Part shown: piece after piece, positions 9,251 through 23,656 of the stretch | Numbering within the stretch: the stretch's first letter is position 1 | How the letters are laid out: the number at the start of each line of letters is the position of its first letter | Source of the DNA: Gammaproteobacteria bacterium | Lineage (GTDB): Bacteria > Pseudomonadota > Gammaproteobacteria > Steroidobacterales > Steroidobacteraceae | Direction: 5' to 3' | Assembly (NCBI GenBank): GCA_016874055.1 | Contig: VGVG01000004.1 | Location: 123-32,122 of the forward strand | DNA length: 32,000 nt | Translations under genes and position numbers: made by a program | The notes under the pieces: generated by a model | Databases searched by the model: none | Told to the model about the DNA's origin: nothing | Seen by the model: only the letters and a program-made list of their open reading frames with translations

Positions 9251-9265
9251 TTATTCCCATTCAAT
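9251..9265 (-). repeat. att-like copy of the guaA 3' terminus (distal island end)
   Basis: TTATTCCCATTCAAT versus TTACTCCCATTCAAT at 22058-22072, in the same orientation. On the minus strand it still reads IEWE-stop. The 12-mer TCAACGACTTAC lies nearby at both sites (9293-9304 and 22036-22047). Confidence 0.6.
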
Positions 9266-9426
9266 ATATGCCTAATTTATAATCCAATACTTTCAACGAC
9301 TTACCAGCTCGATATATTTTTGTGTAAGTTTTGTGCAAGTCATAAAAGGCATCTATGTTGAGAGCAGTGTGGGTGACGATGGATGTTGGGAGTATAGACG
9401 TTACACACCGTGCAAGCGGCAACGTC

Positions 9427-9672: not shown

Positions 9673-9684
9673 ACCACGTAACCT

Positions 9685-10077: not shown

Positions 10078-10301
10078 GGACAGCCGCCGACGCCAATCTG
10101 CCGCACAGGCGCGGTCTGCAATTCCACCTCGGTCACAAGCTCGCGTACCACGGAGAGCGCGGAGGGGTAATCGCTCGGAGTCGCGACTCGCCTGCGCACA
10201 ACCGGCGTACCCTGCGCATCGAGCGCCGCAACCTCGATCTTCGTGCCGCCGAAATCGACACCGATCAGCGGCGGGACTTTTGGATCTGACTCGAGTGACA
10301 T
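10078..10301 (-). pseudogene. ROK-family sugar kinase (NagK/glucokinase-like), N-terminal ~75 codons only
   Basis: MSLESDPKVPPLIGVDFGGTKIEVAALDAQG...ATPSDY...VRELV...QIGVGG is the ROK N-terminal ATP-binding region. Similarity ends abruptly at ~10078, where AT-rich DNA begins. Confidence 0.7.
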
Positions 10302-10376
10302 CCCGGCGACTACACCCGGCGAACCGCCGCGCGACGCTCGATGCATCGGGCGGCAATTCAGGCCGAGGCTATGACG

Positions 10377-13300
10377 TCAAAAGGTCTTCGAGAGCGTGGC
10401 ATACACGTATCTGCCCGTGGCGTTCGCCAGGCTGCCAAAGTAGCCGAAGTTCGTCGAAGTGATCGGCGGGTCTTTATCTTCGATGTTGCGAACGCCGAGA
10501 CGCAGCGAAGTACGGTCAAGCAGATCGTCACGACGACGGAAGTCGTACTGGCCGTACAAGCTCACAGTCGTCCAGCTCGCAACCTCAAACAATTGGCCGT
10601 TGACCGCAGCCGGGCCGGTATCGAACACTGAACCCACATAATTGGCGAATAAGCCGGCTCGCCATTGCTTTTCACGCCAGGTAAGCGAAGCCGAACCGCG
10701 CCATTCCGGATTGCCGTTGACACCAATCTGATTGCCGGCCGCCGTGACCACGATGCCCGAGCCCAAGCGCCCTGCATTGTTGGCCGCGATGACCTTGCCG
10801 GCCATCTCGGTGGGCTGCTGCTCGAACTTGGTCAGCTTGGCCGCGTTGACGGTAAAGGTGAATGAACCCAGCTTGGTGCGCCGCAGCTCGTAGCGCAGGC
10901 TGGCGTCGAAGCCTTCGAGTTGTCGCGGCGTGATGTTGAAATAGTTGTCCTTGATCTGCAGCAGCTGCCCGACACGATTCGTGCCCACGGGCGGGTCACG
11001 AACGAGATTCGGGTTGCTCTGTCCGTCGAGGCGCAGCAGGTAGTCGTACAGCAACTGCACTTGCCCGCCCTCGATACCAATGACTTCGGTTTGTTTGATC
11101 GACCAAAAGTCGACCGACAGCGACACCTTGCCCGCCGCGTCTGGCAAGAACGTCGGTTGCAGGATGATACCGGCCGAAAGGTTGTCAGCTTCTTCGGGGC
11201 CGAGACCCCGGTTGCCTGAACGAACCTCGATCGTGCTCGCTCCCGCGCAGGTCACGGCATTGATTCGGCAGAAGGCGAAATCGGTACGTGTGTTGCTGAC
11301 CTGAGTGCCCGAGCTATAGAACTGCGGCAAGTTTGGCGCACGGAAAGCCTGCGACGCCGAGCCGCGCAGCGCGAGCCAATCGGCGATCGCCCAGTTGAGC
11401 GCAATCTTTGGTTTGGTGACAGTACCGAAATCGGAATAACGCTCGGTGCGACCCGCGAGCTGCATCTCCACCGATTTCACGAGCGGAATCTCCATCTCAG
11501 GCGATACCACCGGCACTGCGAGTTCGAGATAGCCAGAAATGATGGAGCGATGCGCACGCACATCCGGCGACGGGCTCGCGCCCATCACGTCCGTGCCGTA
11601 AGTGATGTTGCTAACGACATCGGTGTACTTGATCGTACCGTCGAGTCGCGGATCACGATTATCGACATAGCTCTCGCGACGCACTTCGACACCCGCAGCG
11701 ATACCGACGTCACCACCCGGCAACGCCCGCACGTCGGGTCGCGAGGCTTTCAAATCCCACATCGACAACGACGTTTCGCTGATGCGATTTACGCCGACCA
11801 GAAAGCCCCTGATGGTGGCGGCGTCGCTCGGGGTCGTATCGGCACCCGAATACAGCAACTGGTTGCCGCCATTGAAGGGGTTGTAGGCATCAGGCGTTGA
11901 CTTGGCGAGCGCCTGCTGGAAGAGCGTATTGCTGACCGCGTTGGTGGTGAAATCGTCGGTCTTCGCCCAGGAATAGACGAGCGCAGATTCCCAGTCGTAA
12001 CCCCACTTCTGACCACGCAGGCCGGCAAGCAGGCGATAGCTGTCGTCGGTGACTTCGTAGACACGCGGGCCGGTGTCCACCGGTCGATAAGTCGTAAGGC
12101 GCAGGGGCAACCCCGTGGTCGGCACGTTCACGAGGTTCGGCAAGCGGTTCGGGTTGGCGACGCCATTGATGGTGGTGGCACCGAGCGGATTGTAATAGTT
12201 CGAAGCCGGGATGGAGATCACCGCGCTCGCCAGTGGCGCCGACTGCTCGCGAAGTCCCGAGAAGAACGCGCGGTAGTAACCGGCCTCACCAAAGAATTCG
12301 AGATCACCAAGATCACGACTGACCGTGGCGAAGGCGTTATATCGATCGACAGCGCCTTTCAGGGTGCGATCCGCATTCTCGTTGTAGCGCAGTTCGCGAT
12401 CGACGGCGCCGGTAATCGTGCCGGCACGCAGACAAAGATTGCTGTTGTAAGTGGTACTGCTGCAGCCTGCCGCCGTGTTGGAAATCGGTTCGACACGAAA
12501 AACGCCGGACGTGGTGAGCGCCGTCGTCCCCTGACGAACTGCCACCGTGCTCGGAATGACCGTGAAAGAACCCCAGGGCGACGAGGTGCTGCGGTTGTCG
12601 AATGCCGTGTCGCCCGCCCAAGGAGTATCGGCAACTTTCCAACGATGATCTTCGCTCGCGGCGTAGTCACGATCAGTCGCCAGCAGCCGATTACGCGTGT
12701 AGTACCCGGCATAGACCGCAAGACGCGTTCCGTTTTCGAAACGAGTTCCGGCCTTGAGGTTCACCGTGGTTTCACGGTGCGGGGTGCCCTCGGAGCCACC
12801 GTACTGCGCTTCCATACGCAGGCCTTCGAAATCAGACTCGAGCACGGTGTTGACGACGCCCGCGACGGCATCAGTACCGTAAATGGCCGCAGCACCGTCA
12901 CGCAGGACCTCGACGCGCTTTACGCCCGCGACTGGAAAAGCATTGGTATTCGCAGTCTGCACCGGTACGAAATTTTCGGTCTGCGTCCCCGGGGCGGGGA
13001 CCACGCGACGACCGTTCAGCAACATCAAAGTATTGCCAGTGCCGAGGCTGCGCAGGTTGATGGACGAAGTGTCGCCACGCGCATCGTTCAAGTTGCCCGT
13101 CGTACGCGCTTCCTGAAAAGCCACATCACCCGCCTGCGGAATCGAGCGGTAAAGATCGTCACCCGAAACCGCTGCGGTCGCGATGATGTCTTCTTTGTCG
13201 ACGACGGTGACCGGCAGCACCTCGGTGATCTTGGCGCCGCGAATCTGCGAGCCGACGATGACGACCTCGACCAGTTCTTCTTCGGTGCCTGCTTGCGGCG

Positions 13301-13403
13301 CAGCACTTTGTTGTGCGCTGGCGGCGGCTGTGAAGATCAGACTCGCCGAAAACACGAGGCTGCGGATCATTTGGGCGCGGGATGTTACGAACTGCGAGGG
13401 CAT
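10377..13403 (-). CDS. TonB-dependent outer-membrane receptor
   Basis: Signal peptide ending AASAQQ, a TonB-box-like ELVEVVIVGS, a plug domain (INLRSLG...TLMLLNGRR), a long beta-barrel and a C-terminal aromatic residue (..LSKTF). ATG 13403 has AAGGAG 11 nt upstream. Confidence 0.9.
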   Translation of the reverse strand: MPSQFVTSRAQMIRSLVFSASLIFTAAASAQQSAAPQAGTEEELVEVVIVGSQIRGAKITEVLPVTVVDKEDIIATAAVSGDDLYRSIPQAGDVAFQEARTTGNLNDARGDTSSINLRSLGTGNTLMLLNGRRVVPAPGTQTENFVPVQTANTNAFPVAGVKRVEVLRDGAAAIYGTDAVAGVVNTVLESDFEGLRMEAQYGGSEGTPHRETTVNLKAGTRFENGTRLAVYAGYYTRNRLLATDRDYAASEDHRWKVADTPWAGDTAFDNRSTSSPWGSFTVIPSTVAVRQGTTALTTSGVFRVEPISNTAAGCSSTTYNSNLCLRAGTITGAVDRELRYNENADRTLKGAVDRYNAFATVSRDLGDLEFFGEAGYYRAFFSGLREQSAPLASAVISIPASNYYNPLGATTINGVANPNRLPNLVNVPTTGLPLRLTTYRPVDTGPRVYEVTDDSYRLLAGLRGQKWGYDWESALVYSWAKTDDFTTNAVSNTLFQQALAKSTPDAYNPFNGGNQLLYSGADTTPSDAATIRGFLVGVNRISETSLSMWDLKASRPDVRALPGGDVGIAAGVEVRRESYVDNRDPRLDGTIKYTDVVSNITYGTDVMGASPSPDVRAHRSIISGYLELAVPVVSPEMEIPLVKSVEMQLAGRTERYSDFGTVTKPKIALNWAIADWLALRGSASQAFRAPNLPQFYSSGTQVSNTRTDFAFCRINAVTCAGASTIEVRSGNRGLGPEEADNLSAGIILQPTFLPDAAGKVSLSVDFWSIKQTEVIGIEGGQVQLLYDYLLRLDGQSNPNLVRDPPVGTNRVGQLLQIKDNYFNITPRQLEGFDASLRYELRRTKLGSFTFTVNAAKLTKFEQQPTEMAGKVIAANNAGRLGSGIVVTAAGNQIGVNGNPEWRGSASLTWREKQWRAGLFANYVGSVFDTGPAAVNGQLFEVASWTTVSLYGQYDFRRRDDLLDRTSLRLGVRNIEDKDPPITSTNFGYFGSLANATGRYVYATLSKTF

Positions 13404-13505
13404 GGTCGACAAGCTCCTTGTCTTTTTCAGGGGGTCAACGGGAAAAAACAAATATCCCCGTTCCCGTTAATATTGTCCATACCATAAGGACTCGCGGAGA
13501 GCGCA

Positions 13506-15254
13506 ATGAACTTCAGCTGTGCCATCGTCAAAGCCCGGTTCGGCACGCGAATTTGGGCAGCGCTTGCGCTGTCCCTGACCCTCTGGGCTGGTGGTCCGCT
13601 CGCCGAAGCCCAGCAACAGTCGCTGCTCGAATACCCGAGCATTCATTCGCCACGAGTGGGGCTGCAGGGCATGGTGGTCAGCCAAAATGAGACGGCGAGT
13701 GCGATTGGCGCCAAGGTGCTCGCCGAGGGTGGTAATGCCATCGATGCAGCCGTCGCCGTGGGCTTTGCCCTTGCGGTCACCCTGCCGCGTGCCGGCAATA
13801 TCGGCGGCGACGGCTTCATGACGGCGTATCTTGCCAACGAAAAGAAAGTCACCGTCATCGATTTTCGCAGCGTGGCGCCGCTTACCGCCAAGCTCGACAT
13901 GTTCGTCGATGCTCGCGGTAAAGAACGTCCGGAAGCCTCGGTCGGCTATCGCGCGGCGGCCGTACCCGGGACCGTGGCTGGACTCTGGATGGCCCACCAA
14001 AAATATGGGCTTAATCCTTGGGGCAAACTGGTGGCCCCTGCGACGGCGCTCGCTCGCGATGGGCTGGTGCTGAGCGGAGACGAAGCGTTTGTTTTCGGCT
14101 GGGGTCGCAAACGTCTCGAAGCAAGTGCCACGGCCAAGGCTACGTTCTTCAAAGCAGACGGTAGCGCCTACAAAGCCGGCGAGCGCTTGCAGCAACCACA
14201 GCTTGCTTGGACGCTGGAGCAAGTTGCCAAGGGTGGTGCAGAGGCTTTTTATCGCGGCGAAGTCGCCACGCGCATCGAGGCGGACATGCGGCGCAATGGC
14301 GGTCTCATCACGCGCGAAGATCTGGCGGCGTATCGCACCATCGAGCGCACTCCGTTGGTGGGCACTTATCGCAGTACCACCGTCTATACGCCCCCGCCCG
14401 CCAGCGGCGGTGCGGCCTTGCTGCTGATGCTCAATATTCTCGAAAACTTTGATCTCAGCCGCATGTCGGCAGGTTCTGCCGAGTCATTGCATCTGCTCGC
14501 CGAAACCATGCGACTCGGTCATCGCGATCGCGTCCGTCATTTCGGTGATACCGCTTTCGCCAAGGTGCCGCTGACGGGTATCACCTCCAAAGGCTACGCT
14601 GCCGAACGCGCCAAGCTCATCAATCCACGCCAGGCCAATGACGACGACGACATTCGCGCCGGCGATCCTTTTGCCTATGAAAGTCCAAGCACAACGCACT
14701 ACTCGGTGGCTGATCGCTTTGGCAACGTCGTATCTGTGACCTACACGCTAGGATCGGATTTTGGTTCGGGCGCGATGATCGACGGCACCGGTATCCTGCT
14801 CAACAATCAGATGAACAATTTCAGTCATGAGCGGGAATTTCGTGCGGCAGAAAGCAATGACCCCGAACCTGCGAACGCCATGCGCCCGGGCAAACGCATG
14901 ATGTCGACCATGATGCCGACGCTGGTTTTTCGTGACGGCAAGCCTTGGCTTGCGCTCGGCACACCGGGCGGCGGCCGCATCATCAATACCGTGCTGCAAG
15001 TGCTCGTGAATGTCGTCGACTTCCGCCTCAATATCGATGAAGCAACCCATCAGGCAAGGATTTCGCAAGGCGATGGTCCGCTCGAAGTAGAACCGAACTT
15101 CAACCCCGATACCTTGGAGTTGCTGCGCAAGAAAGGTCATCGCATCAAACAGAGCGATACCATGGGCAGCGCGCAGTCGATTGCACTCGAGAACGGTTAT
15201 TTCTTTGGCGCGCCCGACCCGCGCCGACCGGGTGCGGCCGCCATCGCTCCCTGA
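13506..15254 (+). CDS. ggt: gamma-glutamyltransferase
   Basis: Signal peptide and the autoprocessing/catalytic site PSTTHYSVADRFGNVVSVTYTLGSDFGSG, plus GTPGGGRIINTV. ATG 13506 has GGAGAG upstream. Confidence 0.95.
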   Translation: MNFSCAIVKARFGTRIWAALALSLTLWAGGPLAEAQQQSLLEYPSIHSPRVGLQGMVVSQNETASAIGAKVLAEGGNAIDAAVAVGFALAVTLPRAGNIGGDGFMTAYLANEKKVTVIDFRSVAPLTAKLDMFVDARGKERPEASVGYRAAAVPGTVAGLWMAHQKYGLNPWGKLVAPATALARDGLVLSGDEAFVFGWGRKRLEASATAKATFFKADGSAYKAGERLQQPQLAWTLEQVAKGGAEAFYRGEVATRIEADMRRNGGLITREDLAAYRTIERTPLVGTYRSTTVYTPPPASGGAALLLMLNILENFDLSRMSAGSAESLHLLAETMRLGHRDRVRHFGDTAFAKVPLTGITSKGYAAERAKLINPRQANDDDDIRAGDPFAYESPSTTHYSVADRFGNVVSVTYTLGSDFGSGAMIDGTGILLNNQMNNFSHEREFRAAESNDPEPANAMRPGKRMMSTMMPTLVFRDGKPWLALGTPGGGRIINTVLQVLVNVVDFRLNIDEATHQARISQGDGPLEVEPNFNPDTLELLRKKGHRIKQSDTMGSAQSIALENGYFFGAPDPRRPGAAAIAP

Positions 15255-15640
15255 CGCGACGCGGATACGAGCAGACACTCGACCTCCGCCCGTCTTGGCG
15301 CCGAGGGCTGAGCCCCCGCTCGTGTCACCGACAGGGCAGCCGCAGCATTTGCAAATATCACGGCGTTTCGCAGCAGCTTACCCTCGGCGAGCGCGGTCGC
15401 GAGCGCCGCATTGAATACATCCCCCGCTGCCGTCGTGTCGAGTGCCTTTACTTTGAACCCCGGGACGAGTCGTGCACCATCGACAGCGACCACGAAGGCG
15501 CCACGCGCACCCATGGTAATGATGACTGTGGCGATACCGCTCGCCCGCAAGGCTTCGGCCGCTCTCGCCGCGCTCGCGTCGTCGGCAACACGGATCCCGG
15601 TCAGCAGCTCGGCCTCGGTCTCGTTAAGGGCCGCGTAACG
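15197..15640 (-). pseudogene. rbsK: ribokinase (PfkB family), C-terminal half only
   Basis: NETEAELLTGIRV...ITMGARGAFV...VKALDTTAAGDVFNAALATALAEG...ANAAAALSVTRAGAQPSAP aligns to the C-terminal ~145 aa of RbsK as I recall it. The N-terminal half is absent, and the frame is closed by a TGA at 15680-15682 in AT-rich DNA. Confidence 0.8.
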
Positions 15641-15768
15641 CAGAAGCAGGTTGAGGAATATCTGAAGCGCAATCAGGGCTCAAAGATAACTCTTAAGTCG
15701 TCCAAAAAATGACGCTGTCATTACTAAAGCGCGACGACACATAGAGCGTTACCCTTTTGGCGGATAAA

Positions 15769-16257
15769 ATGTATAGATCTACCAGAGATTTCATAAACGC
15801 AAGGAAGCAATTTACGGCTCCGTACATTCCTGAACATCTACCTAGTGTTCGTCGAATCGGCGGTGGTCAGCCTCAGTTATGCTATGTCAACGCAACGGAT
15901 TATATGGACCTTCAGGTAGCCAATGGGGTTGAGGTAGCTATACGAAGCGGATGGCTCGTGACTCCCTACGACAAAAAGACGAACTCATCGCTCATCATTC
16001 AGCATTGGTGGAACGCTGTGAGGAATAACGGATACGTTGATACCACTCCGCTTGATGATACAGCAGAGTATGTTGAAGACTGTGCTTTGAAAAAATTCTG
16101 TGTGCGCAATGACGGAAAGCTAAAGACTCATGTAGCGCACAGCTTGCTCTACAAAGATGGCATTTTCTCAGTCATCCTTGATCCTGAGAAAGGCGAACTT
16201 GCAAAGCTCGATGAATTGCGCACAGAATTTTTATACGCACGGAAATGGATTGCCTAA
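15769..16257 (+). CDS. hypothetical protein (162 aa from the ATG, 166 aa from TTG 15757)
   Basis: AT-rich ORF with GGCGGA upstream of ATG 15769. Convergent with the small recombinase gene, with the stops 2 nt apart. No recognisable motif. Confidence 0.5.
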   Translation: MYRSTRDFINARKQFTAPYIPEHLPSVRRIGGGQPQLCYVNATDYMDLQVANGVEVAIRSGWLVTPYDKKTNSSLIIQHWWNAVRNNGYVDTTPLDDTAEYVEDCALKKFCVRNDGKLKTHVAHSLLYKDGIFSVILDPEKGELAKLDELRTEFLYARKWIA

Positions 16258-16259
16258 AG

Positions 16260-16823
16260 CTAGACTAACTCCACCGCCCGCCGTTTCATCTCATCATTCA
16301 CATCGATGTAAGCCTGCGTGATGGCAATGCTGCGATGGCCAGCCAAACTGGCTAACACACGCACTCCCACGCCTTTGCTTGCGAGTGTGGTGATGAAGGT
16401 GCGGCGTCCGCTGTGGCTACTGGCACCGGCTATGCCCGCCCGCCTGTATGTCCAGTAGAACCACTGCGTGAGAGTGTTCGCCGTGAATCCTGACTTTTTA
16501 GCAGTAGGAAACAGCGGCAGATTCGCGGCTCTGCTCGTGCTGCGAAGATAGTGAGCAATTTCGTCGCGTAGTTTGTCGTTCAACAGCACTACTCGCCCAA
16601 ATCGTCCCTTTGTCTGCGTGGCTGCGAGGCGTACCTCGGCTTTAATCGTGCCGTCCTCAGTGCGTACATCACATATCCGCAGTGCTGCGATCTCGCCCAC
16701 ACGCATGCCACTCCAAAAACTCATCAGCACTAACAGCCGATTGCGTGCGGCGTGCTGTTTTGTCGCGACATACCGCAGCACTTGATCCAGTTCTGCTTGG
16801 GTGAGTGTTTTTGCTTGTGCCAT
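16260..16823 (-). CDS. small (187 aa) tyrosine recombinase, catalytic domain only (FimB/FimE-size class)
   Basis: The catalytic residues are present: GMRVGEI (Arg I), HSGRRTF (HxxR) and GHRSIAITQAYI (His/Tyr). The N-terminal LTQAELDQVL...HAARNRLLVLMSF layout resembles small invertase-type recombinases. ATG 16823 has GGAGG 6 nt upstream. Confidence 0.85.
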   Translation of the reverse strand: MAQAKTLTQAELDQVLRYVATKQHAARNRLLVLMSFWSGMRVGEIAALRICDVRTEDGTIKAEVRLAATQTKGRFGRVVLLNDKLRDEIAHYLRSTSRAANLPLFPTAKKSGFTANTLTQWFYWTYRRAGIAGASSHSGRRTFITTLASKGVGVRVLASLAGHRSIAITQAYIDVNDEMKRRAVELV

Positions 16824-17210
16824 CTGTGCCTCCTGACCAAATAAATGTAGTGGATTAATGTTGTGTTCTTTTCTCCTCTTATTTCCTACCTCAAAAGACC
16901 TTCCGTAAATCAAGAGGTTATAAGCGAAGAAAAGAGTTTCGCTGTTGTATTTGGTTATTTAGCAAGTAACTTGCCCAACCCTACGCGGAATTAGCCCGCC
17001 CCGCGTAAAACACGCTATAACGCCGTATAACGGGCTTTGCAGCGTGAGTCGCTACCCAAGCCAGCCCAAGCAGTGCTGCGTTCGTTGTAGGGCTTTATAC
17101 GCAGGGCTTACTGTTGGATTGCCCAATTTCCCCTGCTGTCCGCTGTTTTCTGCGGTGTAGTTTTCAAGCAGGACGGAGATCTCCAGTGCTGGTGATTTGT
17201 TCTAACCAGC

Positions 17211-17296
17211 GTGTTCTATCGTGTTTTCCAGTGTTTCCGCAGTGTTCGATTGTGTTTCCAGTGTGTTCTGTATGTTTGAGATATCTGTGTTTGATC
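17211..17296 (+). repeat. phased iteron-like GTGTT(T)YC repeats
   Basis: GTGTT starts at 17211, 17221, 17231, 17242, 17252 and 17263 (10-11 bp spacing), with another at 17287. The array lies in a 510-bp non-coding stretch between the recombinase and Rep-like genes. Confidence 0.6.
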
Positions 17297-17365
17297 GAAG
17301 CAGAGTGAGTTATGTGATGTGAGCGAGAAGTAAGTGATGGCATTATTTACGGACACGATTAAGCA

Positions 17366-17389
17366 ATTAAAGCCGAGTGCGGCTTTAAT
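17366..17389. other. perfect 10-bp stem / 4-nt loop hairpin just downstream of the Rep-like gene
   Basis: ATTAAAGCCG-agtg-CGGCTTTAAT, 35 nt past the Rep-like stop (17424). There is no strong U-tract, so it may be a terminator or an origin/nick-site hairpin. Confidence 0.35.
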
Positions 17390-17423
17390 GCGAGATAGCA
17401 AGAGGCAAACGAGGCCGATAATG

Positions 17424-17951
17424 CTATTTGACTAATGTCCAAAGCACATTGTCGCTGTGCTTTGAGCCTGTCTCTTTCGTTATGTATTCCAGCCAGCCCG
17501 AGTCGGCAATGTCGACTTCGTGCTGCAGGTCTATGTCCGCGACGTGCTGTTTGGCTTGGCGGACAAGGGAATCAAACTGATTGAACTTAAACTGAGGCGG
17601 CAGATTGCCGATTGCGAAGTGTATGTGCAGGTTTTTGCCGCTACATTCGCCCTCCAACACTGGCAAGTACGACAGCGTTTTGCCGTATTTCTCGGCGGCA
17701 TATCGACCAAACACGACACGATTAAGTTTTTGCTGGAATCGGCGTGTGGTGCGTTCGACATCGGCACGAGTAATGCGGCGGTAATAAGTACCACACGGCG
17801 TTTGGACGCGGACAGACTGCTTGAGTGTCAGCGTCAATGCTAATGGATGCGTTTTGGCGAATGTCGTCAGCCAAAGTCGCGTCGCGGCTTTCGTAGTTTG
17901 CTGCGTATTTGGCACATAGCCGACGCGGCTGCGTATGTCGTTCAACTTCAT
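17424..17951 (-). CDS. minimal HUH-superfamily rolling-circle replication initiator-like protein (175 aa from the ATG, 181 aa from TTG 17969)
   Basis: Three RCR motifs in canonical order: motif I ALTLTLK (FLTLT-like), motif II NLHIHFAIG (HUH plus hydrophobics) and motif III LEYITKE (YxxK). It is adjacent to an iteron-like array. Identified by motifs only. Confidence 0.55.
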   Translation of the reverse strand: MKLNDIRSRVGYVPNTQQTTKAATRLWLTTFAKTHPLALTLTLKQSVRVQTPCGTYYRRITRADVERTTRRFQQKLNRVVFGRYAAEKYGKTLSYLPVLEGECSGKNLHIHFAIGNLPPQFKFNQFDSLVRQAKQHVADIDLQHEVDIADSGWLEYITKETGSKHSDNVLWTLVK

Positions 17952-17968
17952 ACAGTTATTTAGTCGCA

Positions 17969-17998
17969 ACCAAATAAAACTAGTTATTTTTATTTGGT
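17969..17998. other. AT-rich 11-bp-stem hairpin between the 151-aa ORF and the Rep-like gene
   Basis: ACCAAATAAAA-(8 nt)-TTTTATTTGGT. It lies between stop 18004 and the Rep-like start region. It may be a terminator, an operator or an origin element. Confidence 0.35.
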
Positions 17999-18003
17999 AT
18001 GTG

Positions 18004-18459
18004 CTAACTGATTGATTGGATCGGCTTTATTGCTGGCGGCGCTGCGGCTTTTGGCGTCTGCCGTGCCTTCTTTATCGCCAGCTTAGCTCTCTCCTGCTGC
18101 GCCATCGCCCGGTACTGCTTGGCTTGCTGGGTGAGAGCTTGGATGCGCTGCTGTTCGGGTGTTTTGGGTGCTTGGGTTTCTGGCACATAGCGACGCACAG
18201 TGGAGATACGTTTACGACCGTAGAGGTGTTCCGCCGCTCGCTGTGCATCCGCAGCACTTTCGGCGTGGATCAGCGTTCTAAAGTTGCCAATGCCAGGCAC
18301 GCTGACCGACACCTCAAACGCTTTGTATCTGCCGTCAATTTCGTAAAGCCGCATACAGATATTTAGCGGCAGTACAGTCGGCTGGGTTTGGCTGTCAACC
18401 GAAATTGCCTTTTCTTTTGTTCTGGCAAATTTCGGTAGGGATAGTGAAAAACTGAACAT
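18004..18459 (-). CDS. hypothetical protein (151 aa, alternative ATG at 18354)
   Basis: ORF upstream of and co-directional with the Rep-like gene. The C-terminal third is Q/A/K-rich and coiled-coil-like. No recognisable family and no clear SD at either ATG. Confidence 0.4.
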   Translation of the reverse strand: MFSFSLSLPKFARTKEKAISVDSQTQPTVLPLNICMRLYEIDGRYKAFEVSVSVPGIGNFRTLIHAESAADAQRAAEHLYGRKRISTVRRYVPETQAPKTPEQQRIQALTQQAKQYRAMAQQERAKLAIKKARQTPKAAAPPAIKPIQSIS

Positions 18460-18498
18460 AGTGTTGCTGTGCGTTCAACAACAGAGGACACGCACACG

Positions 18499-18936
18499 AT
18501 GGCTATGTTGGCTTCACTAAAATTGACGCAGGCTAAAAAGCCCGCACAGATTCCGCCCGTTCAAGTAAGACGGAATAAACTCGTCAAACGCCTACACGAG
18601 CAGATTGAACTGGCTCGTGCTGAACAGGGCGGCAGCACCTACAGCCCCAAACGCTACAAGACTGTGACGGATGAAGAAGGAAACCGCCGCACGATTGAGA
18701 TCGCCAAACGCATCAAGCCGTGGTGGTTTGTGGGCGTGGAAGGTCGGCTCTGCCTCAATGTCCGCTACGGAGCCAAGATGCTGGAGTTGGCGAAGGGGAA
18801 AACTGCAGTGGAGATTGCCACGCAGCAAGACCTCGTACCCACGCTGGAACTGATCAAGGCCGCTGTGGAAGCAGGGGAGTTAGATCAGCAGATGAACGCC
18901 GCCTCCAACACGCTACGCAGTGGGTTCAAACGATGA
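18499..18936 (+). CDS. hypothetical protein (145 aa)
   Basis: ATG 18499 has GAGGA about 10 nt upstream. It is divergent from the 151-aa ORF with only a ~39-bp spacer. Basic N-terminus (VQVRRNKLVKRLHEQIELA). It looks like a conserved-hypothetical type, but I cannot name the family. Confidence 0.5.
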   Translation: MAMLASLKLTQAKKPAQIPPVQVRRNKLVKRLHEQIELARAEQGGSTYSPKRYKTVTDEEGNRRTIEIAKRIKPWWFVGVEGRLCLNVRYGAKMLELAKGKTAVEIATQQDLVPTLELIKAAVEAGELDQQMNAASNTLRSGFKR

Positions 18937-19069
18937 TGGCAAGATACACTGCTTAACGCTCTATTGCGTTACCGTAGCGACAAGGGAAATGGCGGCGTAT
19001 TTCGTAAATTAAGGCGAATATGCGGGAGTAACCAAGTCGAAAACGGGGCACTAACGCCGTTCAAGTGTG

Positions 19070-19108
19070 AGCGGCTGGCAGGCATAGCTAACATGCTTGT
19101 CAGCCGCT
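19070..19108. terminator. hairpin between convergent genes
   Basis: AGCGGCTGGCA-(17 nt)-TGTCAGCCGCT (10/11 pairing) between the 145-aa ORF (+) and the integrase relic (-). Confidence 0.3.
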
Positions 19109-19501
19109 ACAGTTTGGGGACAAGGATACCGTCCTTGTACTCATAATCTGCCAAGGCGTTGCTCAGCATTTTATCGAATGTGGTGTGGTAGTAGGTGCGT
19201 TCGATTTGCGAGATGCTGGTGCCGCACATCTCCGCAACCGCAGCAGGTGGTAGGTTGCTATTCACCCGCTTTGTAATGAAATAGTGACGGAAGCTGTACG
19301 GGACGAGATTGCGGTTTCCTAAGCTGATCCGCGCCTTCTCCATTAGCTTGTCGAAGTGGTAGCCGATCGCTCTTGGCGTGAGTGGCGTCTTTCCGTTGTA
19401 GCTGAAGACGAGCTTGTCGCTCAGCTCTCTTAGCACCGCGATCTCTGTCAGTTTTCTTGCCTTCGCGATGTACTGAAGATAACTGCTAAAATACCTGTGT
19501 T
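19107..19501 (-). pseudogene. tyrosine integrase, C-terminal ~130 codons only
   Basis: LVPYSFRHYFITKRV (HxxR box) and MCGTSISQIERTYYH (catalytic Tyr box). This is the same C-terminal pattern as the 450-aa integrase (YHCRHVYISYRL / VGTSLNQIEKTYDN). The upstream part is replaced by the IS21-type element starting at 19502. Confidence 0.7.
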
Positions 19502-19845
19502 TGCTTAGCGACAATTAACTTGGCCGGTTGACGACAATTGTCTTGGCCGGTGGGCACTGCCTCCGGTAATCGTCGTTGCAGATCCTCAAAGATCGTTGTC
19601 GCTGTCAGCCCCGGCGCAGCCCGCAGCCTCGGCAGGATCTCGCTCTCCCACAGCCCCTCGAGCGGATCGCGGCGCGTCCGCCACTGCCGGCGCGGCTGCT
19701 GCGACGGCAACACCGCTGCATGCTCGATCCGACGGGCTGTCCGCACGCTGATGCCTACCTTCGCCGCCGCAGCTTCCTGCGGCAGCGTGTTCCGTAACTC
19801 CTTGTATCGCTTCACTTGTTGGTCCGTTATGCGCTGGCCGGGCAT
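19486..19845 (-). pseudogene. istA: truncated IS21-family transposase gene (istA N-terminal HTH region)
   Basis: MPGQRITDQQVKRYKELRNTLPQEAAAAKVGISVRTARRIE...RRQWRTRRDPLEGLWESEILPRL matches the IstA N-terminus as I recall it. ATG 19845 has GGAGAG upstream. The frame runs out through the terminal repeat. Confidence 0.7.
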
Positions 19846-19972
19846 CGTGACTCTCCTCGTTCCCTTCGAACGAGAAATCACGACCCAACCCATCGCTGCA
19901 AGCGCCCCCGGCGGCAGCGCCCACCGGCCAAGACAATTGTCGTCAACCGGCCAAGTTAATTGTCGCTAAGCA
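19502..19972 (-). mobile_element. 471-bp IS21-family deletion derivative (miniature element)
   Basis: 54-bp perfect terminal inverted repeats (19502-19555 and 19919-19972) with TG...CA termini. Each end carries two tandem sub-repeats GACAATT(A/G)(A/T)CTTGGCCGGT, as in IS21-type multi-repeat ends. The interior is high-GC and encodes only the start of istA. No flanking target-site duplication (cctgtgtt versus gcggcata). Confidence 0.8.
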
Positions 19973-20276
19973 GCGGCATACCTTCTAGCAAACTCACGGT
20001 TTCTCTGATTCGTTACAGACTGGTATAACCTCGGGTCTAACCAACTGAAACAGGAATCTTTGTTCCATAGATCTAACGAATGGTCAGACATCTATTCTCT
20101 TACCCAACCTTTTACTCACGTTACTCACTCCTCTTTTAGGCAATAGGTCTCCAATTGGGCTCAACACCCATCAAGTACTGAATACAGGCATCTACGAAAG
20201 GATTTCGGAAAACACCAAGATCTGAGAAACCCGAGCACAACCAAGCCGCAAACGGCAGTGGTCGCGAACTATTCAG

Positions 20277-20299
20277 AGAGGCAGAGCACTTCTGCCTCT
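20277..20299. terminator. 9-bp-stem hairpin downstream of the integrase gene
   Basis: AGAGGCAGA-gcact-TCTGCCTCT followed by T-rich sequence on the + strand. It lies in a 408-bp AT-rich region with no ORF in the supplied ORF track. Confidence 0.3.
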
Positions 20300-20382
20300 A
20301 GATCTATTTATAAATTTTCGATAGGCAAAAGGCTGACAAACGCTTATTTTTTACTCTTGGTAAGTGAAGCACCGCCTAGCGG

Positions 20383-21735
20383 TTATTTTTTCTTGCCAAT
20401 ATTTTTTTGAATTTCTAAAGAAGCAATTTCAGCCTGAATATTGTCGTAGGTTTTCTCAATTTGATTGAGCGAGGTGCCTACTGCTTTTGCGACCATATAC
20501 GGATTCTTGTCGTCAAGCAGACGGTACGAAATATAAACGTGGCGGCAATGGTAAAGATCAAACCACTCAAGCCCCTTTAACTTCAATTGGGCACGCAATC
20601 CTCGCTTGTAGAAGTCATAGAACTTTCCGCGAGCAGCGGAGTGAGCAGGATAAATCTTGCTTCGCTTGGATCCGTCCTCAAACATCGCGAAGACGAAGTC
20701 ATCTTCTCGCTTGTGAATCGCGTGCTCTTTTAACCAACGCAAAAGATGATTCACCTTTTGTCCGTTGTCGTAGGTTCGAGCTGAAATTGTAGTGTTCCGA
20801 TCTTTGCTTTTCTTGCTTGTTTCTGCGCGAACGCGAATCGTCACAATTTGACTTTCAGCGTCTATGGTGAGGTCTTTGTTTCGCAAGCCGAACAGTTCAC
20901 CTGATCGGAGTCCGCAATTACTGATCGTCAGAAAAGCCTGTCGAACCATACTCTTGTAGTAAACGTCTTTCGGCGAATCAGATTCTTTCGGAGAGGACCA
21001 AGTATTCAGAATTCGGACTACTTGGTTGTACTGCTCAAAAGTTACACGCTTGCGTTTAGGTTCAGGCGTTTTGAACGTGTCCCAACGTGGTATTGCTCTT
21101 TCAGATGATAGTTTTTTCTCATACGCCCATCTGAACGCTGCTCTGATCTGTAACAGTTCATCACGTATCATCGAGAGCGATGCTTGGTTTTTAGTTTTGC
21201 CTCTGACTTCTAACTCGCGCCAAGGCAAGTATTGATTCCATAGGTTCCCATCCACAGTACTTACTTTAGTATTGAGGGCAAGACTCAGCTTTTGGTGAAG
21301 AAATCTTTTTCCGTGCCCAAGACGACAGTGAATGTTTTTCAACGTGGAGGGTCTTTTCAGTCCTCTGCGTACTTGATCGTCCAAATGCTTGCCGTACTGA
21401 CGAAACACATCACCAAGATTCAAGCTCTGAATCTGATGACCACTTTTTATCTCTGAGAGCAATTCTAAGTAACGATCTTCGGCAAGTTTTTTCGCCTCCC
21501 TTAAAGAGTTCGTTTTCAACGACTCTTTGTAGTCGTTTTTCTTGCCCTTCACGCGAAACTTGAAATACCAAACTCCACGCGCGACGGCAGCTGATAGATC
21601 ACCGCCCTTCGGTCGTAGTTGATCGCCGCGACGAAAAAGAGTCAGTTTTCGACTCCCCACCGTAAGTTCGTGCTTCTCGAGGAACGAGAACCCCTTGCCG
21701 TACCTAGACTTTGCGGCGTTGCTAGAGCGACCCAA
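20383..21735 (-). CDS. int: tyrosine-type site-specific integrase (island integrase, 450 aa)
   Basis: GLRSGELFGLR (Arg I), YHCRHVYISY (HxxR) and LNQIEKTYDN (Tyr). It has a long N-terminal arm-binding-type region, is about 40% GC, and lies 320 bp from the guaA stop. Start is TTG 21735 (no upstream ATG; GTG at codon 26 is possible). Confidence 0.85.
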   Translation of the reverse strand: MGRSSNAAKSRYGKGFSFLEKHELTVGSRKLTLFRRGDQLRPKGGDLSAAVARGVWYFKFRVKGKKNDYKESLKTNSLREAKKLAEDRYLELLSEIKSGHQIQSLNLGDVFRQYGKHLDDQVRRGLKRPSTLKNIHCRLGHGKRFLHQKLSLALNTKVSTVDGNLWNQYLPWRELEVRGKTKNQASLSMIRDELLQIRAAFRWAYEKKLSSERAIPRWDTFKTPEPKRKRVTFEQYNQVVRILNTWSSPKESDSPKDVYYKSMVRQAFLTISNCGLRSGELFGLRNKDLTIDAESQIVTIRVRAETSKKSKDRNTTISARTYDNGQKVNHLLRWLKEHAIHKREDDFVFAMFEDGSKRSKIYPAHSAARGKFYDFYKRGLRAQLKLKGLEWFDLYHCRHVYISYRLLDDKNPYMVAKAVGTSLNQIEKTYDNIQAEIASLEIQKNIGKKK

Positions 21736-21878
21736 TGCCTTCCCTACCCTCGTGGTTGCGTTCGCTTAAATGCCGTTTCCGTGTCTTCTAGAGGCACTTT
21801 CGAGTCCCTCCGAAAGTTTTTACTGTAAAAACTTGTCATCCTCGCGGGACAAAGCGGGAAATGCTTAGACGGCACAGA

Positions 21879-22017
21879 TAGGTAGTAACTTTAGTCTCGC
21901 CTCGGTCAGAGGCTACCTATTTTCACCGAGAGATTCGAGCACTGTAGGTAGTTCTCTAGGTAGTTGGATAGATGTAACTCGTTGACTTTATTTGAGTTAG
22001 GTAGTTTCTAGGTAGTT
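21879..22017. promoter_or_regulatory. array of TAGGTAGTT repeats (candidate integrase/Xis arm-type sites)
   Basis: TAGGTAGTAA at 21879-21888. TAGGTAGTT at 21945-21953, 21957-21965, 21998-22006 and 22009-22017. An inverted copy GCTACCTAT at 21912-20. All lie between int and the guaA stop. Confidence 0.55.
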
Positions 22018-22057
22018 TTATAAAAACCTTATAAATCAACGACTTACGTTCTTTACA

Positions 22058-22072
22058 TTACTCCCATTCAAT
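22058..22072 (-). repeat. att core at the guaA 3' end (proximal island junction)
   Basis: TTACTCCCATTCAAT (the last 4 codons plus the stop of guaA). It is repeated 14/15 at 9251-9265. Confidence 0.6.
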
Positions 22073-23656
22073 CGTCGCTGGAGGTTTACCGCTGATGTCG
22101 TATACCACACGGCTCACACCCTTGACTTCGTTGACGATGCGACGCGAACAGATGTCGAGTAATTCATAGGGCAGATGCGCCCAGTGCGCCGTCATGAAAT
22201 CAATGGTCTGGATGGCGCGTAACGCGATGACAAGATCGTGACGTCGACCGTCACCCGTCACACCCACTGACTTCACGGGCAGGAACACCGCGAATGCTTG
22301 ACTCGTCTTATTATACCAACCCGACTTGCGTAGCTCTTCGATAAAAATATGGTCGGCGAGTCGAAGCGTGTCGGCTGCAGCTTCAGTAACTTCGCCCAAA
22401 ATTCGAACTCCGAGACCGGGACCTGGGAACGGATGTCGATTCACCATCTCGGCAGGCAGTCCGAGCTCGACACCGATCTTCCGGACCTCATCCTTGAAGA
22501 GCTCGCGTAGCGGCTCGACGAGCTTGAGTTTCATTTGGGCGGGCAGTCCGCCCACGTTGTGATGACTCTTGATGACGTGCGCCTTGCCGGTCTTGCTACC
22601 AGCCGATTCGATGACGTCGGGGTAAATCGTCCCCTGCGCGAGAAATTCGACGCAGTCGCGGGCATTACCGGCCGCGAGCTTCTTCACCGCGTCATCGAAT
22701 ACCTCGACGAAAAGTCGGCCGATAATTTTGCGCTTGGCTTCGGGGTCACTCACACCCTTAAGCTCACTGAAGAATCTATCAGCAGCGTTCATCCGTATAA
22801 CTCGCACCCCGAGATTACGGGCAAAGATATCCATCACGGCGTCGCCTTCGCGATGACGCAAGAGGCCATGATCGACGAATACGCAGACCAGCTGATCGCC
22901 GATGGCACGATGCAACAAGGCCGCGACGACCGACGAGTCGACGCCGCCTGAAAGCCCGAGTAACACCTTCGATTTGCCGACCTGCTCGCGCACGCGCTCA
23001 ATCGCGTCGTCAATGATATTGCCCGGGTTCCAGCTCGCATCGCAGCCGCAGATATCGTGTAGGAATCGGGCGTATATACGCTCGCCCTGCCTCGTGTGGG
23101 TCACTTCCGGATGGAACTGCAGGGCATAGAACCGTCGCGACTCGTCCGCCATACCGGCGACGGGTACATCGCTCGTCGATGCGATCGCAGAAAATCCTGT
23201 GGGTAAGGCGACGACCTGATCGCCGTGGCTCATCCAGACGTCGAGCAGACCGTCACCCTCGGCGTTAACGCGATCTTCGATGCCGCGCAGAAGCGCTGAA
23301 TGATTACGAGCACGAACTTCGGTATAGCCGAATTCGTGGATGGCACCCGGCTCGACGCGACCGCCGAGCTGCGCCGCCATGGCCTGCATACCGTAGCAAA
23401 TGCCGAGCACAGGGGCGCCAAGCTCGAAAACAGCTTTGGGCACTACCGGAGCATTTTTCTGAGTAACAGACTCAGGACCCCCAGAGAGAATGATGCCCTT
23501 CGGTTTGAACGCACGGACATCGATATCGCGGACATCCCAGGCGTGGATCTCGCAGTACACACCGAGTTCGCGCACACGACGCGCAATTAGCTGAGTGTAT
23601 TGCGAGCCGAAGTCGAGGATGAGAACGCGGTCAGCGTGAATGTCGCGGGCAATCAT
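22058..23656 (-). CDS. guaA: GMP synthase (glutamine-hydrolysing)
   Basis: Full-length 532 aa with the GATase domain ([25 protein letters not shown]), the ATP-PPase P-loop ([10 protein letters not shown]) and the C-terminal ...KPPATIEWE. Confidence 0.97.

What the first reader, a model, noticed from the sequence alone, without database searches (positions are those of the whole stretch)
15641..19106. Candidate integrated minimal rolling-circle replicon carrying its own small recombinase (element type not recognised)
This ~3.4-kb module has a composition distinct from both neighbours. It contains an orphan 162-aa ORF and a 187-aa catalytic-domain-only tyrosine recombinase with intact R/HxxR/Y residues, which in size and layout resembles FimB/FimE-type invertases more than island integrases. 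A 510-bp non-coding region with phased repeats follows. Next is a 175-181-aa protein with the three rolling-circle Rep motifs in canonical order (ALTLTL, NLHIHFAIG, EYITKE). The module ends with a divergent pair of unknown ORFs. I saw no capsid, morphogenesis, helicase, relaxase or partition genes. The logic of a divergent putative regulator, a Rep gene and a recombination function recalls satellite-like relatives of filamentous phages such as RS1 of CTXphi, but with different proteins. I do not recognise it as a described element family. It is my best candidate here for a novel self-replicating, integrating unit.
Basis: partly seen in the sequence, partly recalled or inferred. Interest (0 to 1): 0.75.

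Follow-up and report, generated by a model that had tools for sequence, protein, structure and literature searches.

The report
Stranded backbone of a guaA-integrating replicating island
This stretch is the conserved core of a little-known family of mobile DNA islands from freshwater bacteria, carrying a small rolling-circle-type replication protein with its DNA site and a stripped-down tyrosine recombinase, but this copy has lost its own integrase and is probably stuck in the chromosome.

Summary
All five ORFs, the three Rep motifs, the 187-aa catalytic-domain-only tyrosine recombinase and the repeat-rich spacer are present.

The 175-aa protein is an HUH (rolling-circle-type) nuclease by motifs, predicted fold and weak PF23343 homology. 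Exactly one conserved hairpin-bearing site abuts its stop codon in 45 related loci.

The trio DUF6641 / Rep+site / short recombinase recurs in about 25 genomes, mostly freshwater Burkholderiales, and in many metagenome contigs. One relative assembles as a closed 12.36-kb circle in several independent samples.

The unit is not minimal, and the small recombinase is not its integrase. Complete relatives start with a separate ~430-aa integrase inserted at the 3' end of guaA, followed by variable cargo.

In this window that integrase is reduced to its last ~135 residues, next to an IS21-derived 471-bp miniature element. A second, unrelated integrase lies between it and guaA, and a distal att copy lies at 9251-9265.

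The rep, spacer, short-recombinase layout matches plasmid pIGRK, whose recombinase-like MobK is a conjugative relaxase. That role, or dimer resolution, is inferred here and not shown.

Verdict: an undescribed variant of a known kind (integrative, replicating, probably mobilizable island), present here as a defective copy.

The parts
9251..9265 (.). Distal copy of the att core (TTATTCCCATTCAAT, the last 15 nt of guaA with 1 mismatch). It is probably the outer end of the composite island and is followed directly by the RBS and GTG start of the host GSDH gene.
   Evidence: A 12-mer (TCAACGACTTAC) and CTTACACAAAA motifs shared with the guaA-side junctions of relatives lie within 80 nt.
15641..15756 (.). 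Left junction of the low-G+C backbone. It abuts a PfkB-kinase gene that retains only its C-terminal ~117 codons (15197-15550), so it is a rearrangement scar and not an att site.
15757..16257 (+). orf166/162, unknown function, convergent with the recombinase. It is poorly conserved (29-36% in 2 relatives) and carries a 24-nt in-frame deletion polymorphism in one population contig.
16260..16823 (-). Short tyrosine recombinase (187 aa). It consists of the catalytic domain only, with no core-binding domain, and all catalytic residues are intact.
   Evidence: Conserved at 49-68% identity in 22 of 25 genome loci.
16824..17060 (-). Recombinase-linked non-coding block with RBS, probable promoter and a hairpin (16923-16943). 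It stays with the recombinase gene when other genes are inserted between rep and rec in relatives. It is the candidate oriT or recombination site.
   Evidence: The hairpin covaries across relatives (CCAAAGC/GCTTTGG, TGTAAGG/CCTTACA, AGCGAA/TTCGCT).
17211..17300 (-). Eight phased RAACAY repeats at 10-11-bp spacing, an iteron-like or DNA-bending array.
   Evidence: Only some relatives share it (L012: 7 phased pairs against 0.4).
17330..17424 (-). Rep-linked cis block and candidate double-strand origin. GCATTATCG, a 3-bp-stem hairpin and TCTTGC lie at 17398-17424. Hairpin ATTAAAGCCG/CGGCTTTAAT lies at 17366-17389, followed by a GCTTT-type repeat.
   Evidence: One copy per element, always abutting the rep stop. 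Pair 23-33 shows AU:9, CG:6, GC:6 with none unpaired.
17424..17951 (-). Rep: 175-aa single-tyrosine HUH nuclease with motifs I, II and III.
17969..17998 (.). 14-nt-arm palindrome between orf151 and rep, a possible operator or terminator.
   Evidence: I6.
18004..18459 (-). orf151, unknown function. It is found only in this population's copy. In relatives DUF6641 and rep are directly divergent.
18499..18936 (+). DUF6641 protein (145 aa), the conserved divergent partner of rep. The predicted fold has no relative in the PDB, and it may be a regulator.
19107..19514 (-). C-terminal ~135 codons of the element's own guaA-type integrase. It is 50-84% identical to the complete integrases of relatives, and its N-terminal ~320 codons are missing.
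19502..19972 (.). IS21-derived miniature element of 471 bp with 65-nt terminal inverted repeats and a remnant transposase N-terminus. It has no target-site duplication, so it marks an adjacent deletion.
20383..21735 (-). Second, intact 450-aa tyrosine integrase, only 23-28% identical to the relatives' integrases. It reads inward from guaA.
22058..22072 (.). att core at the 3' end of guaA (TTACTCCCATTCAAT, encoding IEWE-stop). guaA spans 22058-23656 (-).

Best explanation
Coordinates 15641-19106 are the conserved maintenance core of a family of integrative genomic islands.

A complete member reads as follows: host gene 3' end (guaA in one subfamily) | ~430-aa tyrosine integrase | small ORFs | DUF6641 (divergent) | 175-aa HUH Rep | Rep-linked hairpin site | spacer | short tyrosine recombinase without a core-binding domain | variable cargo (restriction-modification systems, sugar and lipid genes) | att repeat.

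Proposed cycle:
1. The large integrase excises the island as a circle. This step is shown only indirectly, by direct repeats and one closed circular relative.
2. Rep nicks the conserved GCAYTAYYG-hairpin-TYTTGC site that abuts its own stop codon and drives rolling-circle replication of the circle. This is inferred from motifs, fold and the one-site-per-element rule.
3. The short recombinase acts on the conserved inverted-repeat region upstream of its gene. I slightly favour a MobK/MpsA-type relaxase role that lets a helper conjugation system transfer the circle. The alternative is resolution of multimers. Both are inferred.

In this window the element sits in a decayed array at the guaA 3' end, spanning 9251-22072. 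Its own integrase is cut down to the C-terminal third beside an IS21-derived miniature element, and an unrelated integrase lies between it and guaA. The Rep, recombinase and DUF6641 genes and both cis blocks are intact, but the copy probably cannot excise by itself.
For: Rep as an HUH nuclease:
- Motifs I, II and III are invariant in 26 sequences.
- The AlphaFold model has pLDDT 88.5.
- Foldseek finds 67 viral-protein matches at E<=1e-3, and the named ones are microvirus replication initiators and ORF2/G2P-domain proteins.
- The best interpretable PDB matches are AAV Rep, parvovirus NS1 and PCV2 Rep nuclease domains (probability up to 0.98, TM 0.48).
- 15 of 26 family members hit PF23343 (best 7e-7), and distant member P0345 passes its gathering score.

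Cognate site:
- There is one copy per element in 45 loci, always at the rep stop, and in the window at 17398-17424.
- Covariation exceeds all 500 shuffles and all slid controls.
- Rep plus this block (~650 bp) also occurs alone inside a T4-like phage contig, so the two travel together.

Family and synteny.

guaA integration with a direct repeat: the 11.8-kb L014 element is bounded by a 16-nt repeat followed by the native guaA terminator.

Circular form: a 12,357-bp circle is assembled with terminal overlaps and different break points in at least 6 samples. Eleven of 24 contigs are ~12.4 kb and none exceeds 20 kb.

Truncated integrase and the miniature element without a target duplication.

Recombinase: no core-binding domain, catalytically intact. 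Its upstream block stays with it when rep and rec are separated.

Layout precedent: pIGRK repR, 456-bp oriT region, mobK (PMC8152469); SGI1 MpsA (PMC6414798).
Against: - No biochemical or read-level evidence exists for nicking, replication, excision or transfer.
- The window Rep itself gets no Pfam hit at E<=1.
- Structural matches have TM below about 0.5.
- The exact window element occurs in 22 contigs, always in the same integrated context and never as a circle.
- The one closed circle carries a different integrase type and was not linked to an att site.
- A cycle in an assembly graph does not prove replication.
- Short recombinases of this kind also sit on large conjugative Legionella plasmids that have their own relaxase, which fits a resolvase better than a relaxase.
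- Whether 9266-15640 (TonB-dependent receptor, GGT and PfkB fragment, at host-like G+C) is island cargo or trapped host DNA is unresolved. No empty site was found.
Confidence: 0.6

Rival explanations
1. The architecture is the same, but the short recombinase is a multimer-resolution (or other conservative site-specific) recombinase for the circular form and not a relaxase. Horizontal transfer then depends on something else, such as transformation, transduction or an unrecognised oriT.
For: The nearest annotated relatives (35-46% identity) are 'site-specific integrases' of about 185-195 aa. They sit on Legionella, Piscirickettsia, Acinetobacter and Azospirillum plasmids, including conjugative MOBF plasmids that have their own relaxase, and are often near the record start. 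The best solved-structure relatives are XerC-like, XerA and XerD. All residues needed for full strand exchange are present.
Against: There is no core-binding domain. The three characterised recombinase-like proteins that lack that domain are relaxases (PMC8152469, PMC6414798). The rep, non-coding region, rec order matches pIGRK. The islands carry no other candidate mobilization gene, yet they occur in several genera and classes.
Confidence: 0.35
2. The 175-aa HUH protein is not a vegetative replication initiator. It is a nuclease of another kind: a Rep-type relaxase for transfer, or the enzyme of a ~650-bp selfish cassette (gene plus target hairpin) that spreads by nicking and homing. The island merely hosts it.
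For: Rep plus its 3' block occurs alone, without DUF6641, recombinase or integrase. It lies between the major capsid gene and a tail-tube gene of a T4-like phage contig, at 82% nucleotide identity to a Limnohabitans island copy. By my recollection this is a region where freestanding homing-endonuclease genes sit in T4-type phages. The protein is very small and has a single tyrosine and no helicase or other domain. No sequenced plasmid or phage uses a detectable homologue.
Against: There is exactly one site per element, not two ends. There is one copy per genome locus, and it almost always travels with DUF6641 and the recombinase. Only 1 of 2.9 million viral contigs carries it. A relative exists as a closed 12.36-kb circle with no other replication gene recognised. 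The motif order HUH then Y is that of Rep proteins.
Confidence: 0.2
3. One reading: a minimal integrated satellite-like rolling-circle replicon (RS1/CTXphi-like logic) that integrates through its own small recombinase.
For: The Rep family lies at the edge of PF23343, which includes filamentous-phage gpII and microvirus Rep. The module has a divergent small protein, a rep gene and a recombinase.
Against: Complete relatives always carry a separate large integrase at the att-proximal end, and direct repeats of the guaA end bound 8-12-kb elements and not the 3.4-kb module. No phage or morphogenesis genes are present. The module has no repeats at 15641 and 19106. 50,697 phage genomes give no hit.
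Confidence: 0.05

Closest known systems
pIGRK / pHW126-group small rolling-circle plasmids (Klebsiella; repR, 456-bp oriT1, mobK), PMC8152469
   Same: The gene order is collinear: replication initiator, then a several-hundred-bp non-coding region rich in inverted and direct repeats, then a ~190-200-aa tyrosine-recombinase-like protein. That protein lacks core-binding and arm-binding domains but keeps the catalytic pentad and tyrosine.
   Different: The Rep here has no BLAST-detectable homologue in 72,556 plasmids. Similarity of the recombinase to MobK could not be tested. Here the pair is embedded in an 8-12-kb integrative island with a separate integrase, a DUF6641 gene and cargo, and is not a 2.3-kb free plasmid.
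SGI1-type integrative mobilizable elements (MpsA/MpsB atypical relaxase; excise, replicate, are mobilized), PMC6414798
   Same: Both are chromosomal islands at the 3' end of a housekeeping gene. Both have a large integrase plus a second, tyrosine-recombinase-like protein and a replication function used after excision.
   Different: SGI1 targets trmE, uses a RepA-type replicon, needs MpsB and carries tra genes. None of these is present here.
guaA-targeting islands GIsul2 / PIMEs (PMC9376610; bioRxiv 10.64898/2026.01.12.698999)
   Same: Both integrate at the 3' end of guaA. PIMEs also excise, replicate and carry defence cargo.
   Different: The PIME backbone is int, alpA, luxR, iteron-type repA/repC and traJ/trbJ/trbL. 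The present backbone is int, DUF6641, HUH Rep and a short recombinase. No alpA, RepA or Tra homologues are found.
Actinomycete integrative elements with rolling-circle Rep (pSAM2-type AICEs), PMC2440964
   Same: Both are integrative elements of about 10-13 kb that combine a tyrosine integrase with a rolling-circle Rep used after excision.
   Different: AICEs occur in actinomycetes, integrate into tRNA genes, encode an FtsK-like transfer protein and Xis, and have a larger unrelated Rep. They have no short second recombinase.
Rep (gpA/VP4, gpII) of Microviridae and filamentous phages, Pfam PF23343 REP_ORF2-G2P
   Same: They share the HUH fold, the motif order I-II-III and a YxxK catalytic motif. 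They give the best structural matches and weak to significant HMM matches for relatives.
   Different: The phage proteins are 250-550 aa with extra domains. This family is 155-215 aa and stand-alone, and it is found in islands and not in ssDNA phage genomes.

Membership tests
HUH endonuclease / rolling-circle Rep superfamily | Motifs I (uuTuT), II (HUH) and III (YxxK) in that order | tested here: met
   LALTLTL, H109-x-H111 and Y156-ITK159 fall in invariant columns of a 26-sequence alignment.
HUH endonuclease / rolling-circle Rep superfamily | HUH alpha/beta fold | tested here: met
   The AF2 model has pLDDT 88.5. BFVD gives 67 matches at E<=1e-3, the named ones being microvirus or G2P Reps, with TM 0.4-0.52. 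The PDB search gives AAV Rep68, NS1 and PCV2 Rep with probability up to 0.98 but E~0.02. The strength is moderate.
Pfam PF23343 REP_ORF2-G2P | HMM score at or above the gathering cut-off (27.8 bits) | tested here: inconclusive
   The window protein has no hit at E<=1. 15 of 26 relatives hit, the best at 7.3e-7. Distant relative P0345 scores 38.9 bits.
HUH endonuclease / rolling-circle Rep superfamily | A cognate structured nick site or origin near the gene | tested here: met
   A conserved, covarying hairpin block occurs once per element at the rep stop. Nicking itself was not testable.
HUH endonuclease / rolling-circle Rep superfamily | Site-specific nicking and initiation of replication | not testable with these tools
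   This needs biochemistry or replication assays.
Tyrosine-recombinase-like relaxases (MobK, MpsA, TcpM) | Orphan DNA_BRE_C catalytic domain with no core-binding or arm-binding domain and an intact catalytic pentad and tyrosine | tested here: met
   The Pfam match spans the whole 187 aa. It aligns only to the C-terminal domains of XerC-like, XerA and XerD. R, K, HxxR, H and Y are conserved.
Tyrosine-recombinase-like relaxases (MobK, MpsA, TcpM) | Cis-acting repeat-rich non-coding region immediately upstream of the gene (in pIGRK, between rep and mob) | tested here: met
   A conserved ~240-nt block with a covarying hairpin stays with rec. Only the layout is met. oriT activity is untested.
Tyrosine-recombinase-like relaxases (MobK, MpsA, TcpM) | Sequence relationship to a characterised member | not tested
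   The pIGRK record is not in the collections. The three known members are themselves not significantly similar to each other (PMC8152469).
Tyrosine-recombinase-like relaxases (MobK, MpsA, TcpM) | Helper-dependent conjugative transfer that requires the catalytic tyrosine | not testable with these tools
   This needs mating assays.
FimB/FimE-type DNA invertases | Membership of the invertase subfamily, and an invertible segment found in both orientations | tested here: not met
   NCBIfam invertase models score 47 and 27 bits against cut-offs of 221 and 222. Nine population contigs are collinear with no inverted segment.
guaA-targeting islands GIsul2 / PIME | Integration at the guaA 3' end with a duplicated core | tested here: met
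   The 15-nt core lies at 22058-22072 and 9251-9265. A 16-nt repeat bounds the L014 element.
guaA-targeting islands GIsul2 / PIME | Backbone genes alpA, luxR-type regulator, iteron RepA/RepC and traJ/trbJ/trbL | tested here: not met
   Pfam, NCBIfam and PHROGs scans of all ORFs between 15.7 and 21.7 kb find none of them.
Filamentous-phage satellites (RS1/CTXphi type) | Phage-derived rstA/rstB/rstR-type genes, or dependence on a helper filamentous phage, with dif/XerCD integration | tested here: not met
   No PHROG phage function is found apart from integrases and a weak Rep hit. Phage genomes give no match. Integration is by a dedicated integrase at guaA.
IS200/IS605-type HUH transposons | Y1 transposase family match, hairpins at both ends and multiple copies | tested here: not met
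   There is no Y1_Tnp hit. There is one site per element and one element per locus.

The most novel reading that the evidence does not exclude
These islands may be an undescribed class of integrative elements, abundant in freshwater bacterioplankton. After excision they would replicate by rolling circle from a ~650-bp mini-replicon (175-aa Rep plus one hairpin site) and be transferred by a core-binding-domain-less tyrosine recombinase acting as relaxase. The Rep+site cassette would itself be portable, moving between islands and even into a T4-like phage genome.
Probability: 0.25. Interest if true: 0.75.

Novelty: new variant of a known kind. Interest (0 to 1): 0.55.

Why it matters
If the model holds, it defines the replication and transfer core of a family of small islands. 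These islands shuttle restriction-modification systems and surface-biosynthesis genes among Limnohabitans, Polynucleobacter and other dominant freshwater bacteria, groups for which almost no plasmids or genetic tools exist.

The 175-aa Rep with a ~95-nt site would be one of the smallest rolling-circle modules known and a candidate vector backbone. The short recombinase would add an environmental, island-borne branch to the recombinase-like relaxases, which have only three characterised members.

For genome annotation, it shows that 'hypothetical protein + DUF6641 + site-specific integrase' next to guaA marks a mobile element.

The window's own copy is a decayed example and has limited interest in itself.

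Tried and rejected
- **Invertible switch (FimB/E-like).** Rejected: nine contigs of the same element show no inversion, and invertase HMM scores are sub-threshold.
- **Phage satellite or ssDNA prophage.** Rejected: no phage genes and no hit in phage genomes. A scan of IMG/VR with the site pattern gave 16 hits, 15 of them with no Rep nearby, which is about what chance predicts.
- **Defence system.** No PADLOC hit for any module protein.
- **Structured RNA.** No Rfam family in the window.
- **DUF6641 function.** The AF2 model (pLDDT 78.8) has no significant PDB neighbour, and no paper mentions it.
None were found at 15641 or 19106.
- **Empty guaA-GSDH site in the population.** Contigs carrying the GSDH gene all break ~1.3 kb upstream, so this was uninformative.
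- **Purifying selection between strains.** Uninformative. The module is 100% identical in the two diverged strains, and all differences lie in 20889-22088.
- **Retrieval of pIGRK/MobK for a direct comparison.** Failed.
- **The 149-aa ORF in the Rep-less Polynucleobacter module.** It is unrelated to Rep.
- **Sigma-70 promoter scan of the module.** It found nothing.

Full report
**What is in the window**

- orf166/162 at 15757-16257 (+).
- A tyrosine recombinase at 16260-16823 (-), 187 aa from the ATG.
- A 600-bp spacer.
- A 175-aa Rep-like gene at 17424-17951 (-).
- orf151 at 18004-18459 (-).
- A divergent 145-aa gene at 18499-18936 (+), which is a DUF6641 protein (PF20346, E=4e-18; phrog_31551, E=6e-28).

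G+C is 0.49-0.54 here against about 0.60 to the left. However, low-G+C DNA continues to the right as far as 22057, where guaA ends. The window has no tRNA genes and no Rfam matches.

**The Rep-like protein**

The window protein has no Pfam or NCBIfam hit, and only a weak PHROG hit to a 'replication initiation protein' (E=0.01).

A database search returned 81 homologues, almost all 172-175 aa. In a 26-sequence alignment the invariant residues are exactly the three rolling-circle motifs: LTLTL, H109-x-H111 and GW-EY156-xxK159-E.

Fifteen of the 26 match PF23343 (REP_ORF2-G2P), the best at 7e-7. A profile search of 1.84 billion representative proteins found 754 clusters at E<=1e-3, nearly all 155-215 aa. 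One distant member passes the PF23343 gathering score, 38.9 against 27.8 bits.

The AlphaFold model is confident (pLDDT 88.5). It matches 67 predicted viral proteins at E<=1e-3, and the named ones are microvirus replication initiators and ORF2/G2P-domain proteins. Its best interpretable PDB matches are the HUH nuclease domains of AAV Rep68, parvovirus NS1 and circovirus Rep.

I take the HUH assignment as established at the level of fold and motifs. Activity is not shown.

Neither this protein nor the distant member has any tblastn match in 72,556 plasmids or 50,697 phage genomes.

**A cognate DNA site**

About 95 nt directly after the rep stop codon are more conserved than the gene itself. The block reads: AGCAYTAYYG; a short hairpin; TYTTGCT; a second hairpin (TTAAAGC-loop-GCTTTAA, 17366-17389 in the window); then GCGAAGCTTT.

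Across 21 elements, 91% of cells pair. Six of 13 pairs change on both sides. The central pair of hairpin 1 is AU in 9, CG in 6 and GC in 6, and is never unpaired. No shuffle out of 500 and no slid register reaches these values.

The pattern GCAYTAYYG-N12-TYTTGC occurs exactly once in each of 45 loci, always at the rep stop and on the rep strand. In the window it lies at 17398-17424.

One site per element fits an origin and does not fit transposon ends. From memory, TCTTG resembles the CTTG|ATA nick sites of pC194-type plasmids and phiX174. That is a lead only.

**The family and its true extent**

The order DUF6641 (divergent), rep, site, spacer, short recombinase, convergent small ORF recurs in three kinds of source:
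- Metagenome contigs.
- The Polynucleobacter paneuropaeus chromosome.
- 25 species-representative genomes, mostly freshwater Burkholderiales: Limnohabitans, Polynucleobacter, Comamonadaceae and Rhodoferax.

tblastn mapping shows that in eight loci the order is guaB, guaA, a 425-453-aa integrase, ~600 bp, DUF6641, rep, rec. The C-terminus of that integrase is 50-84% identical to the window's 135-aa 'integrase fragment' at 19107-19514.

In L014 a 16-nt direct repeat of the guaA end (ATTGAGTGGGAGTGAC) bounds an 11.8-kb element and is followed by the native guaA terminator. L012 carries two elements in tandem.

Other members pair the same core with different integrases at other sites (L005, L011, L022, L025). 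An Azospirillum megaplasmid has int, DUF6641, a distant Rep-like ORF (LYNTKE), cargo, short recombinase.

Cargo varies: type I and type II restriction-modification systems, and sugar or fatty-acid genes.

The small recombinase is not the integrase.

**Circular form**

One relative (Rep 61% identical) was assembled in at least six independent samples as the same ~12.36-kb sequence. The contigs have 123-nt or 30-nt terminal overlaps and different break points. Eleven of 24 contigs are ~12.4 kb and none exceeds 20 kb.

That circle carries an integrase, the core and a type I R-M system, and no other recognisable replication gene. This is good evidence for a circular molecule and indirect evidence for replication.

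**State of the window copy**

The cognate integrase retains only residues from about 320 onward. It abuts a 471-bp IS21-derived miniature element with 65-nt inverted repeats and no target duplication, which points to an adjacent deletion.

Between this and guaA lies an intact 450-aa integrase that is only 23-28% identical to the relatives' integrases.

The guaA-end 15-mer recurs with one mismatch at 9251-9265. Arm-like motifs shared with relatives' junctions lie next to it, and the start of a host GSDH gene follows directly. The array therefore probably spans 9251-22072.

Within that span the backbone's left edge (15640) cuts a PfkB gene. Whether the TonB-dependent receptor and GGT genes are cargo or trapped host DNA is unresolved.

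The exact element occurs in 22 contigs of the same lake population, always in this context and with no circle or inversion. Two strains differ only between 20889 and 22088.

Rep, recombinase, DUF6641 and both cis blocks are intact.

**The short recombinase**

It is a catalytic domain only, with every catalytic residue conserved.

A ~240-nt block upstream of it contains a strongly covarying 10-12-bp hairpin. This block stays with rec when other genes separate rep and rec, while the 95-nt block stays with rep.

Two precedents bear on its role. In pIGRK, the order repR, 456-bp oriT region, mobK encodes a recombinase-like relaxase that lacks the DNA-binding domains (PMC8152469). In SGI1, MpsA plays the same role (PMC6414798).

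Against this, the nearest annotated homologues sit on large plasmids that have their own relaxases, which suggests resolution.

I slightly favour the relaxase role, at about 0.4 against 0.35. Homology to MobK could not be tested.

**Comparison and verdict**

The element works like a replicating integrative mobilizable island (SGI1, PIMEs, pSAM2-type AICEs). It shares the guaA target with GIsul2 and the PIMEs, but none of their backbone genes.

The combination of a stand-alone 175-aa HUH Rep, DUF6641 and a core-binding-domain-less recombinase was not found in the papers searched.

I rate it a new variant of a known kind, and the window copy a defective member.

Noticed in passing
L053 (IMGVR_UViG_3300044546_001066) 9959-10610: A T4-like myovirus contig has tail sheath, gp20 portal, prohead protease, scaffold and gp23 capsid genes upstream, and a gp19-like tube gene and UvsW downstream. 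Between the capsid gene and the tube gene it carries the Rep gene plus its 3' hairpin block, with no DUF6641, recombinase or integrase. The insert is 82% identical in DNA to a Limnohabitans island copy. It is the only such case in IMG/VR.
   Followed up: partly
window 19502-19972: A 471-bp miniature element with 65-nt terminal inverted repeats (2 mismatches), each holding two ~20-nt direct repeats. It encloses a remnant IS21-family transposase N-terminus and has no target-site duplication.
   Followed up: partly
window 9251-9345: A second copy of the guaA 3'-end core (1 mismatch) lies 12.8 kb from guaA, together with GTAAGTCGTTGA and CTTACACAAAA motifs. This implies that the TonB-dependent receptor, gamma-glutamyltranspeptidase and PfkB-fragment genes lie inside an att-bounded array.
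   Followed up: partly
window 20889-22088 compared with L064 and L066: Two strains of the same population differ by about 3% in the 5' half of the 450-aa integrase gene, its upstream region and the guaA end. They are 100% identical across the Rep module and the miniature element, so there is a recombination breakpoint inside the integrase gene.
   Followed up: partly
window 15970-15993: A 24-nt in-frame deletion polymorphism in orf166 in one metagenome contig (L063). Gene callers give this ORF lengths of 79-162 aa in different samples.
   Followed up: no
L051 (Azospirillum sp. B510 plasmid pAB510d) 420339-435434 in record coordinates: An alphaproteobacterial megaplasmid carries the same architecture: integrase, DUF6641 homologue, a 153-aa ORF with Rep-like motifs (AVYLTF, NLHF, LYNTKE; only one histidine in motif II), cargo including an IS1380 element, then a 190-aa short recombinase.
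   Followed up: partly
window 21945-22022: Direct repeats TCTAGGTAGTT(G/T) lie between the 450-aa integrase gene and guaA. They may be arm-type integrase binding sites.
   Followed up: no
window 5000-6500 and 8500-10000: Two further low-G+C patches (0.43 and 0.475). The first holds a 254-aa ORF with AAA/zeta-toxin-like and cytidylyltransferase-like matches (5486-6250). The second holds a 223-aa ORF with no family match (9685-10356).
   Followed up: no
L004 (Polynucleobacter paneuropaeus) 941-3099: A second, Rep-less module (short recombinase, an unrelated 149-aa ORF, DUF6641) lies in tandem with a Rep-bearing one. The same search method found 1335 DUF6641 proteins against 81 Rep proteins, so the DUF6641 and short-recombinase backbone is wider than this Rep family.
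   Followed up: partly
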